64,000 bases of DNA. Source: Eledone cirrhosa (lineage: Eukaryota). Shown piece by piece: positions 590-1,176 of this stretch (within the stretch, counting starts at the first letter, position 1; each line of letters opens with the position of its first letter). Under the pieces are notes generated by a model that saw nothing but the letters and a program-made list of their open reading frames with translations, searched no databases and was not told where the DNA came from. The position numbers and the translations under genes were made by a program. Location of the stretch: contig OZ024747.1 in the NCBI GenBank assembly GCA_964016885.1, positions 33,728,001 through 33,792,000 on the forward strand, in the 5' to 3' direction.

Positions 590-1176
590 GGAGTGAAATT
601 TAAGTAAGTAATTTAATTTTTATAATTTTCTTATTTTACGTCTGTCATATAATTGTTCTGCATCCTCTTGCATTGAACCACAAAGTTACTAAGACAAAAC
701 CTATAGATTTGCTAGCATAGGTATGCATCTGTATATATATGTTGGTAGATATACTAATTCTTTATAATTATATCCAAATTATTTTGTTGAGCAAAATTTT
801 GCCAAAACTGCTACTATAGTTCAGAGTAATAGTTCGGCTACTCTCTACTTAACACTCCACTCCTCACTGATTAACCTCGATGTCACGTGATTGATTCTTT
901 TGAATTTGCCCCCGACCAAGTAGGCAGTGATTTTTTCAATGTCTTGGAATTTAGTCCACGCTTGCTTTTTTCCATCCACTGAATTATTTTTGTATAAATT
1001 CCCTGTGTCCACGCATTGCCTGGGAACTTAGCTGAGAATAGACTTCCTGATGACGAAAAGCCTTCTGCATGTGTTCAATTCGGAAACCATGTTTATTCCC
1101 TTTCAGAAACTAATTAGTTGGAGTGAAATCTTAGTAATTTAATTTTTATAATTTTCTTATTTTACGTCTTTCATAT
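590..1176 (+). mobile_element. Retrozyme-like non-coding element A (530-nt monomer plus ~57-nt terminal direct repeat)
   Basis: 590-650 repeats at 1120-1176. The repeat starts at the predicted HHR cleavage site (after 1119). No ORF; ends in (TA)n. Confidence 0.75.
1042..1124 (+). ncRNA. Type I hammerhead ribozyme motif (long stem/loop II)
   Basis: acttc-CTGATGA-cgaaaag...ctttca-GAAAC-taatta-GTT-ggagt. Stem I acttc/ggagt has one G-U pair; stem/loop III (aactaattagtt) is palindromic. Confidence 0.72.

What the first reader, a model, noticed from the sequence alone, without database searches (positions are those of the whole stretch)
590..1176. Element A: an independent second example of the same architecture
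Seen: the repeat unit ggagtgaaat... starts at 590 and at 1120, the base after the GTT triplet (the preceding tt also matches). The period is 530 nt. As in B, a T-rich tract follows the cleavage site, the internal copy reads tcatat...gttctg, and the 3' end is ...tcATAT merging into (TA)n. Inference: both families prime reverse transcription at an internal ATAT that can pair with a nicked (TA)n target.
Basis: partly seen in the sequence, partly recalled or inferred. Interest (0 to 1): 0.75.

Follow-up and report, generated by a model that had tools for sequence, protein, structure and literature searches.

The report
Ribozyme-bearing Penelope-type mobile repeat
This is one copy of a very abundant, protein-free jumping repeat in an animal genome (probably an octopus) that carries a self-cutting RNA motif and ends in TA repeats; it is a known kind of element, but its two ends hint at how such elements are copied.

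Summary
A 530-nt unit (590-1119) is followed by a 57-nt repeat of its own start (1120-1176), which runs into (TA)n. A type I hammerhead (1042-1124) has its predicted cut exactly at the repeat boundary. Public contigs show a very abundant family, and 24 contigs of one run leave the element at the same ATAT into (TA)n. This is the layout of a non-autonomous Penelope-like element (non-LTR retrozyme): one unit plus the PLE 'tail', which marks internal initiation of reverse transcription. A Neptune-type PLE fragment lies 2 kb away in (TA)n. A is probably not independent of B: both share a hairpin module just 3' of the ATAT. And priming by ATAT pairing is plausible but unproven: sequence cannot tell it from unpaired initiation, which is what the only PLE tested in vitro does. 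Worth noting: A and B both begin at the hammerhead cut site, which suggests that ribozyme-cut RNA was the template. No cleavage, expression or empty site was shown. New member of a known kind; interest 0.4.

The parts
409..587 (+). Left flank: 3' end of a LINE (RTE-like by recalled motifs, not tested) with a TAGA/TA microsatellite tail; A starts right after ...GATATATAAATAT
   Evidence: 89% identical over 167 nt to 53312-53478 on the - strand, the end of an RT-like ORF; junction
590..1119 (+). Monomer of element A, from one hammerhead cut position to the next (530 nt, 34% GC, no ORF over 63 codons on either strand)
   Evidence: depth in run X1 rises from 28 (562-583) to 3.8e4-8e5 just inside
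590..650 (+). 5' copy of the terminal repeat (U-rich, weakly structured), starting at the cut position (588 if the matching TT is counted)
   Evidence: z -0.1
647..650 (+). Internal ATAT, the position at which copies end; candidate start site of reverse transcription
   Evidence: 24 contigs of X1 continue from here into (TA)n
655..697 (+). Module shared with element B: hairpin GTTC/GAAC plus TGCA/TGCA with a 2-nt bulge (655-678), then CAC and AGACAA; candidate binding site for the RT (inferred)
   Evidence: the two listed family variants inside the hairpin (666, 668) lie in its loop
1042..1124 (+). Type I hammerhead: stem I 1042-1046/1120-1124, core 1047-1053, C.A mismatch at the base of stem II, stem II 1055-1060/1099-1104 with a long variable insert, GAAA 1106-1109, palindromic stem III CTAATTAG, cut after GTT 1119
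   Evidence: family variants at 1045, 1059 and 1061 turn a wobble or mismatch into a Watson-Crick pair
1120..1176 (+). PLE-type 'tail': second copy of the unit's start, ending in TCATAT
1173..1298 (+). (TA)n array at the 3' junction, overlapping the last 4 nt of the tail
3040..4370 (+). Context: 5'-truncated, broken Neptune-type PLE (RT thumb, C-x4-C-x2-C linker, GIY-YIG) with its own hammerhead (core 4167, cut 4201), (TA)n on both sides; shows that the enzyme type exists in this genome, not that it is A's partner
5485..6135 (+). Context: element B, 526-nt unit plus 125-nt tail, hammerhead core at 5941, cut at 6010, same TCATAT and hairpin module

Best explanation
Element A is one insertion of an abundant non-coding, non-autonomous Penelope-like retroelement (non-LTR retrozyme type). 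Steps. (1) A tandem donor is transcribed (inferred). (2) A hammerhead, probably as a dimer through the palindromic stem III, cuts the RNA and defines its 5' end (motif shown; cleavage inferred). (3) A PLE RT-endonuclease, most likely Neptune-type, binds the RNA, probably at the hairpin module 3' of the AUAU (inferred), and nicks TA-rich DNA (inferred from the flanks and the literature). (4) Reverse transcription starts inside the RNA at the AUAU about 60 nt after a cut position (fixed end shown; initiation inferred from the PAc work). It reads back across one uncut or re-joined hammerhead junction and through a full unit, and stops at the ribozyme-made 5' end. This gives exactly cut site, 530 nt, 57-nt tail, (TA)n. 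Whether the nicked ...ATAT-3' primer pairs with AUAU is open; I put it at about 0.45. The simplest template is a more-than-unit RNA cut at its upstream hammerhead only.
For: Hammerhead with its cut at the repeat boundary. Family variants restore pairs: 1045 T>C in 84% of X1 depth, 83% of X2, 74% of X4 and 57% of X9 reads; 1059 A>G in 73% of X1 but only 42% of X2 and 10% of X4. High-copy family with a sharp left edge: 3061 contigs laid in X1, 55 in X4 (another organism label). Depth over the repeated segment (8.1e5 at 628-649) is about twice that just beyond it (3.9e5 at 672-693), as expected if copies carry it twice (rough). 24 contigs end at the ATAT into (TA)n. Both A (within 2 nt) and B (exactly) start at the cut position; chance about 9e-5 if 5' ends were uniform. 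The two repeats are about 5% apart and the copy differs from the family majority at 14 or more of about 590 sites, which fits repeats that were identical at insertion (inference). A Neptune-type PLE in (TA)n lies nearby. Tails as RT start sites: PMC11167929. Retrozymes as PLE derivatives: 10.64898/2026.07.22.740005.
Against: No cleavage or expression data. Rfam hammerhead models do not hit, and the unconstrained fold does not form the hammerhead (z +0.09). This copy has a C.A mismatch at the base of stem II and an A.C mismatch within it. In the 2026 preprint 8 of 9 predicted retrozymes did not cleave. No partner PLE sharing A's sequence was found; the tail of the nearby PLE ends in ACAATAT, not TCATAT. 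The left flank is only 10 nt of TA-like sequence, and no target-site duplication can be read. 5' ends of other copies were not resolved. For PAc, hammerhead cleavage was not needed in vitro and no RNA-seq reads began at the cut site, which runs against step 2 being general.
Confidence: 0.8

Rival explanations
1. Same element, but RT starts without pairing: the protein, docked on the hairpin, fixes the start site, and the ATAT overlap is chance or part of a protein-recognition motif.
For: PAc initiates at a site not homologous to the cut DNA (PMC11167929). A and B share the module, so there may be only one observation, at about 0.02. Four A-U pairs are very weak. Other hammerhead-bearing ends in the window meet their TA runs after other letters, though their internal copies are not in view.
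Against: ATAT is kept at the end point in two families with no overall similarity (monomer alignment score 43, shuffle maximum 46). EN-less PLEs are described as attaching to telomeres with the help of complementary repeats beside a hammerhead (PMC8557442).
Confidence: 0.4
2. The long (TA)n at the 3' end was not the target. It grew from the terminal ATAT, by repeated copying of AUAU at initiation (telomerase-like) or by later slippage.
For: A has 63 TA units on the right but only about 10 nt on the left. SINE-like copies in the window also end in short TA runs (family D16).
Against: The nearby PLE fragment has long (TA)n on both sides (148-210 units) and B has a TA run of 27 units upstream. 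A (TA)n target bias is reported for Naiad PLEs, and a microsatellite bias is attributed to Neptune (PMC8557442).
Confidence: 0.2
3. The template was a 530-nt circular RNA read for slightly more than one turn, or linear monomers joined by a template jump from a 5' end to a ribozyme-made 3' end.
For: Animal retrozymes accumulate as circles (PMC7229834). The 1119/1120 junction is seamless. A circular fold is mildly favoured (z -1.8 on 40 shuffles).
Against: A circle gives no reason to stop at the junction on the second pass, yet A and B both begin there. A template jump fits equally well and cannot be excluded.
Confidence: 0.3
4. A DNA-level remnant: a local partial duplication or a decayed satellite unit, not a retrotransposed copy.
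For: The two repeats are only 89% alike; no target-site duplication is visible.
Against: Both boundaries coincide with RNA-level landmarks (ribozyme cut, shared tail end); B repeats the layout; many contigs share the end.
Confidence: 0.04

Closest known systems
Animal non-LTR retrozymes (Cervera and de la Pena 2020, PMC7229834; Li, Clavereau and Pollet 2026, 10.64898/2026.07.22.740005)
   Same: Non-coding, low-GC unit with a type I hammerhead; short palindromic helix III; a mismatch at the base of helix II as in axolotl HHR_Amex2 (U.U there, C.A here); head-to-tail repetition; co-occurs with PLEs.
   Different: This copy is one unit plus a partial repeat with a single complete hammerhead, so it fails the 2026 'active retrozyme' rule of two complete motifs. 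The unit (530 nt) is above the 150-450 bp of the 2020 paper but within the 51-972 bp of the 2026 one. Circular RNA is not shown. Fixed end points and (TA)n junctions are not described in the parts I read.
PLE pseudo-LTR and 'tail'; Poseidon PAc of Anolis (Frangieh et al. 2024, PMC11167929)
   Same: A tail beyond the hammerhead whose end marks an internal RT start; AT-rich target; RNA 3' of the start site needed by the protein.
   Different: A has no ORF; its tail is 57 nt; the end point overlaps the target sequence by 4 nt whereas PAc starts at a non-homologous site; A and B begin at the hammerhead cut, whereas PAc did not need cleavage in vitro.
Neptune (and Naiad) EN+ PLEs with (TA)n bias (Craig et al. 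2021, PMC8557442)
   Same: (TA)n junctions without readable duplications; a PLE with the CX2-5CxxC linker and C-terminal GIY-YIG lies at 3040-4370.
   Different: No sequence link between A and that PLE was found; the partner is unidentified. Naiads lack canonical hammerheads.
EN-less Athena/Coprina PLEs (described in PMC8557442)
   Same: A short stretch complementary to the target repeat near a hammerhead, proposed to assist attachment.
   Different: They use telomeric repeats at chromosome ends and have no endonuclease; here the overlap is 4 nt and the site is interstitial.

Membership tests
Type I hammerhead ribozyme (PLE/retrozyme variants) | CUGANGA and GAAA boxes, NUH triplet, stems I-III | tested here: met
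   one extra base on each side of stem II; G-C closing pair 1055-1104
Type I hammerhead ribozyme (PLE/retrozyme variants) | Match to a curated Rfam hammerhead model | tested here: not met
   no hammerhead hit; the other three motifs of the window, including the one in the PLE, are also missed
Type I hammerhead ribozyme (PLE/retrozyme variants) | Pairing maintained across family copies | tested here: inconclusive
   three listed variants improve stems I and II, and none of the 40 rows shown falls in the core or stem III; 129 rows not shown; no full-length copies to align
Type I hammerhead ribozyme (PLE/retrozyme variants) | Self-cleavage | not testable with these tools
   needs in vitro transcription
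Non-LTR retrozyme / non-autonomous PLE | No protein-coding capacity | tested here: met
   longest stop-free frame 63 codons
Non-LTR retrozyme / non-autonomous PLE | Multi-copy repeat | tested here: met
   3061 and 3025 contigs laid in X1 and X2 (one sample), depth up to 8e5 against 24-28 in the flank for X1
Non-LTR retrozyme / non-autonomous PLE | Tandem of two or more units, each with a complete hammerhead (2026 definition of an active retrozyme) | tested here: not met
   this locus has 1.1 units and one complete motif; whether the family has dimers elsewhere could not be told from short contigs
Non-LTR retrozyme / non-autonomous PLE | Expressed as linear and circular monomers | not testable with these tools
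   no RNA run was available for the stretch
Penelope-like insertion structure | Partial tandem with a terminal tail at a fixed end point | tested here: met
   (24 contigs of X1 end at the same place)
Penelope-like insertion structure | Sequence shared with an autonomous PLE | tested here: not met
   no BLAST match of A to the PLE at 3040-4370 beyond TA runs; only one PLE fragment was available, and the genome is not held
Neptune-type PLE (neighbour at 3040-4370) | C-terminal GIY-YIG preceded by a CX2-5CxxC linker | tested here: met
   GIY-YIG, E 4e-4, 21.1 bits, below the 22.6 cut-off; C158, C163, C166 invariant in 7 of 7. No tree was built, so Nematis, which shares the linker, is not excluded

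The most novel reading that the evidence does not exclude
An endonuclease-using PLE system primes like telomerase. A small RNA module (AUAU alignment site, then a conserved hairpin that anchors the RT) is kept in otherwise unrelated non-coding passenger RNAs. It lets the nicked (TA)n strand anneal inside the RNA, while the hammerhead cut sets where copying ends. The insertion would then be a ruler of both landmarks, and the module a portable signal for (TA)n-targeted insertion.
Probability: 0.35. Interest if true: 0.62.

Novelty: new member of a known kind. Interest (0 to 1): 0.4.

Why it matters
The class is known. The details bear on two open points in PLE biology: what the hammerhead does in transposition, and how microsatellite targeting works. 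The one in vitro PLE system found cleavage dispensable and priming non-homologous. Here two non-coding families start at the ribozyme cut and end in a 4-nt overlap with the target, next to a shared hairpin. With a very high copy number the family would allow a strong genome-wide junction test, and a 60-nt module is easy to mutate in vitro. It may also name an abundant repeat family in this genome.

Tried and rejected
Whole-genome search: no genome is held. Rfam scans: no hammerhead hit in the window or in sub-regions; only TA/TG-driven chance hits. A degenerate 26-letter pattern of A's hammerhead end: 0 matches in viral contigs and 0 in metagenome contigs. Related PLE loci: 7 in metagenome contigs, all 1.1-2.1 kb, none with a (TA)5 run or a usable tail; none in viral contigs. 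Sequencing runs: no RNA holder listed. The read-end piles in RAD run X9 (759, 906, 1115, 624, 651, 982) all sit on AATT sites and are rejected as enzyme cuts, including the one at 651; they do show that the AATT form at 651-654 is common in the family. Whole-monomer alignment of A and B is not clearly above shuffles (43 against a maximum of 46). Gapped local alignment of the shared module was not significant (406 of 1000 shuffles) and MAFFT misaligned it; only the anchored word-chain test supports it, and the unweighted version had 28 of 2209 window pairs at or above the score (overlapping and AT-rich pairs included). The hairpin folds alone are weak (z -1.6 and -1.7). No covariance model was built: two sequences would not test anything. 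Look-ups of earlier findings by sequence, place and a long word list gave nothing.

Full report
Setting. The window is AT-rich animal DNA full of LINE fragments, SINE-like repeats and (TA)n arrays. No genome is held. The nearest named relative of a retroelement protein in the window is an Octopus vulgaris hypothetical protein at 58% identity, so the host is probably an octopus; this is an inference.

Observation. GGAGTGAAAT stands at 590 and 1120. The two copies are 89% alike over 64 columns, with one 4-nt gap and 3 substitutions. The internal copy continues TCATAT aatt GTTCTG. The terminal copy ends TCATAT and runs into 63.5 TA units. The left flank is the 3' end of a LINE (89% to 53312-53478) whose tail ends in about 10 nt of TA-like sequence. 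A has no stop-free frame over 63 codons.

The hammerhead. Positions 1042-1124 hold a type I hammerhead: stem I of 5 pairs, CTGATGA, a C.A mismatch, stem II closed by G1055-C1104 with a long insert, GAAA, a palindromic stem III (CTAATTAG) and GTT, with the predicted cut after 1119. A descriptor written after seeing the motifs found 4 hits in the window (cores at 1047, 4167, 5941, 6821) against a mean of 0.04 in 100 shuffled windows. Rfam misses all four, and the free fold of A's motif is not the hammerhead fold (z +0.09). Long helix II, short helix I, an extra base after position 9 and a palindromic helix III are the traits described for PLE hammerheads (PMC4209133, parts 1-2 of 4 read). A U.U mismatch at the base of helix II occurs in an axolotl retrozyme that cleaves 22% in an hour as a monomer and better as a dimer (PMC7229834, passages and sections 15 and 17 read).

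Other copies. I laid 4 of the 11 listed runs on 540-1190. X1 and X2 (one sample) gave 3061 and 3025 contigs, X4 (another organism label) 55, and RAD run X9 8480 reads. In X1 the summed depth is 24-28 over the flank and 9e3 to 8e5 over 584-1155; the tool warns that this is no copy number, but the family is clearly very abundant. Among the 40 variant rows shown (129 not shown), 1045 T>C (84% of X1 depth, 83% X2, 74% X4, 57% of X9 reads) turns a stem I wobble into a Watson-Crick pair. 1059 A>G (73%, 42%, 10%, 52%) and 1061 C>G (28%, 57%, 65% in X1, X2, X4) repair stem II mismatches. No shown row falls in the core or stem III. For the 3' end, 24 contigs of X1 leave the element after 651 with the consensus TATATATATATA...; 24 of 517 loose-end rows were shown, and no such row appeared for X2 or X4. 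At 651 about half the X1 and X2 depth reads T, so many internal copies continue CATAT-T: the overlap with (TA)n is 4 nt there, and 5 nt in copies like this one. Depth over the repeated segment is about twice that just beyond it. The read-end piles of X9 all fall on AATT sites and are enzyme cuts. 5' ends of other copies were not resolved.

Neighbours. B (5485-6135) has the same layout: 526-nt unit, cut after 6010, 125-nt tail ending TCATAT in (TA)n, and a 5' end exactly at the cut position. A broken, 5'-truncated PLE at 3040-4370 has a GIY-YIG domain (just under the Pfam cut-off), a C-x4-C-x2-C linker invariant in 7 of 7 aligned proteins, its own hammerhead, and long (TA)n on both sides. That linker marks Neptune and Nematis; (TA)n targets are reported for Naiad and a microsatellite bias is attributed to Neptune (PMC8557442, passages read). 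A shows no sequence match to it, so it is evidence for the enzyme type only.

Are A and B independent? Their monomers do not align above shuffles. But the 60 nt after the ATAT share three collinear words: GTTCTG, GAACCAC and AGACAA. 0 of 2000 shuffles reach the score. With composition weighting, 0 of 8530 other A-by-B pairs reach it, and B's window ranks first of 25,553 windows in the 64 kb, by a thin margin. The unweighted control had 28 of 2209 pairs at or above it, and a gapped alignment was not significant, so the result is moderate, not overwhelming. Both stretches form a hairpin with the same GTTC/GAAC base, a small 3' bulge and a different but fully paired upper stem. The two listed family variants in A's hairpin lie in its loop. 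I read this as a shared cis-module, by descent or by use of one RT. The ATAT is then probably one observation, with a chance of about 0.02.

Mechanism. Frangieh et al. (PMC11167929, parts 1-2 of 4 read) showed that a Poseidon PLE nicks AT-rich DNA and starts reverse transcription inside its RNA, that genomic tails end at those start sites, and that RNA 3' of the start is required. That explains A's tail. They also found the start site non-homologous to the target and hammerhead cleavage unnecessary in vitro. The simplest template is a more-than-unit RNA cut at its upstream hammerhead and read from the AUAU of the next unit to its 5' end. Template jumping between cut monomers fits too; a plain circle does not explain the stop. 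Pairing at AUAU cannot be shown from junctions, because unpaired initiation leaves the same letters. I give the element class 0.8 and pairing about 0.45.

Known or new. Non-coding hammerhead repeats derived from PLEs are described (PMC7229834; bioRxiv 10.64898/2026.07.22.740005, parts 1-3 of 5 read; its supplements are closed). A works like them and fits most criteria, but this locus has only one complete hammerhead and no RNA data. I found no description of an octopus hammerhead repeat or of ATAT-paired priming in EN+ PLEs. The searches were 'octopus' with 'hammerhead ribozyme' (5 papers, 4 listed, none on this by title or abstract start), a five-term search on microhomology, priming and TA repeats (0 papers with 4 terms). 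A 2026 O. vulgaris repeat annotation counts 31 recently active Penelope-like families and has no 'ribozyme' in its main text (PMC13282606, passages; supplement listed, not read). PMC3846280 and PMC6765202 were seen as passages only. Arkhipova 2006 and Lunse 2017 were not read. Repbase, Dfam, subscription papers and unseen supplements may already hold this family.

Verdict. Real feature; a new member of a known kind, with two testable mechanistic hints. Interest 0.4.

Noticed in passing
window 1434-2606: A perfect 504-nt inverted repeat (1434-1937 / 2103-2606) around a 165-nt spacer of TG, AGT and CA runs, with TA runs at or near both ends; foldback or MITE-like.
   Followed up: no
window 5441-5483: A 43-nt inverted piece of B's own interior (about 5669-5711) is joined to B's 5' end, next to an (AG)n run with which it overlaps by about 2 nt; looks like a second priming event, as in inverted PLE ends.
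   Followed up: partly
window 5856-5930: B carries a stretch like the 3' half of A's hammerhead with the GAAA box lost (score 38, 0 of 1000 shuffles), followed by another TCATAT and a strong hairpin (z -3.8). A and B may descend from an element with two hammerhead modules.
   Followed up: partly
window 6179-7090: Three more hammerhead-like motifs face TA runs: one on + (core 6821), two on - (cores near 7084 and 6290, the second with a damaged GAAA box). The first 7 kb is a cluster of PLE-related ends in (TA)n.
   Followed up: partly
window 5497-5595: B's tail folds into one long hairpin (monomer z -4.7), whereas A's tail is unstructured; the tails differ although the downstream module is shared.
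   Followed up: no
window 4650-4850, 4940-5130, 15560-15760, 57970-58170 and others: Nine copies of a SINE-like repeat (family D12), several with TA runs at an end; resembles the octopus OR SINEs from recall, not tested.
   Followed up: no
window 59500-59541: Another TA run preceded by TTC (…CCTTC|ATATAT); no hammerhead found upstream.
   Followed up: partly
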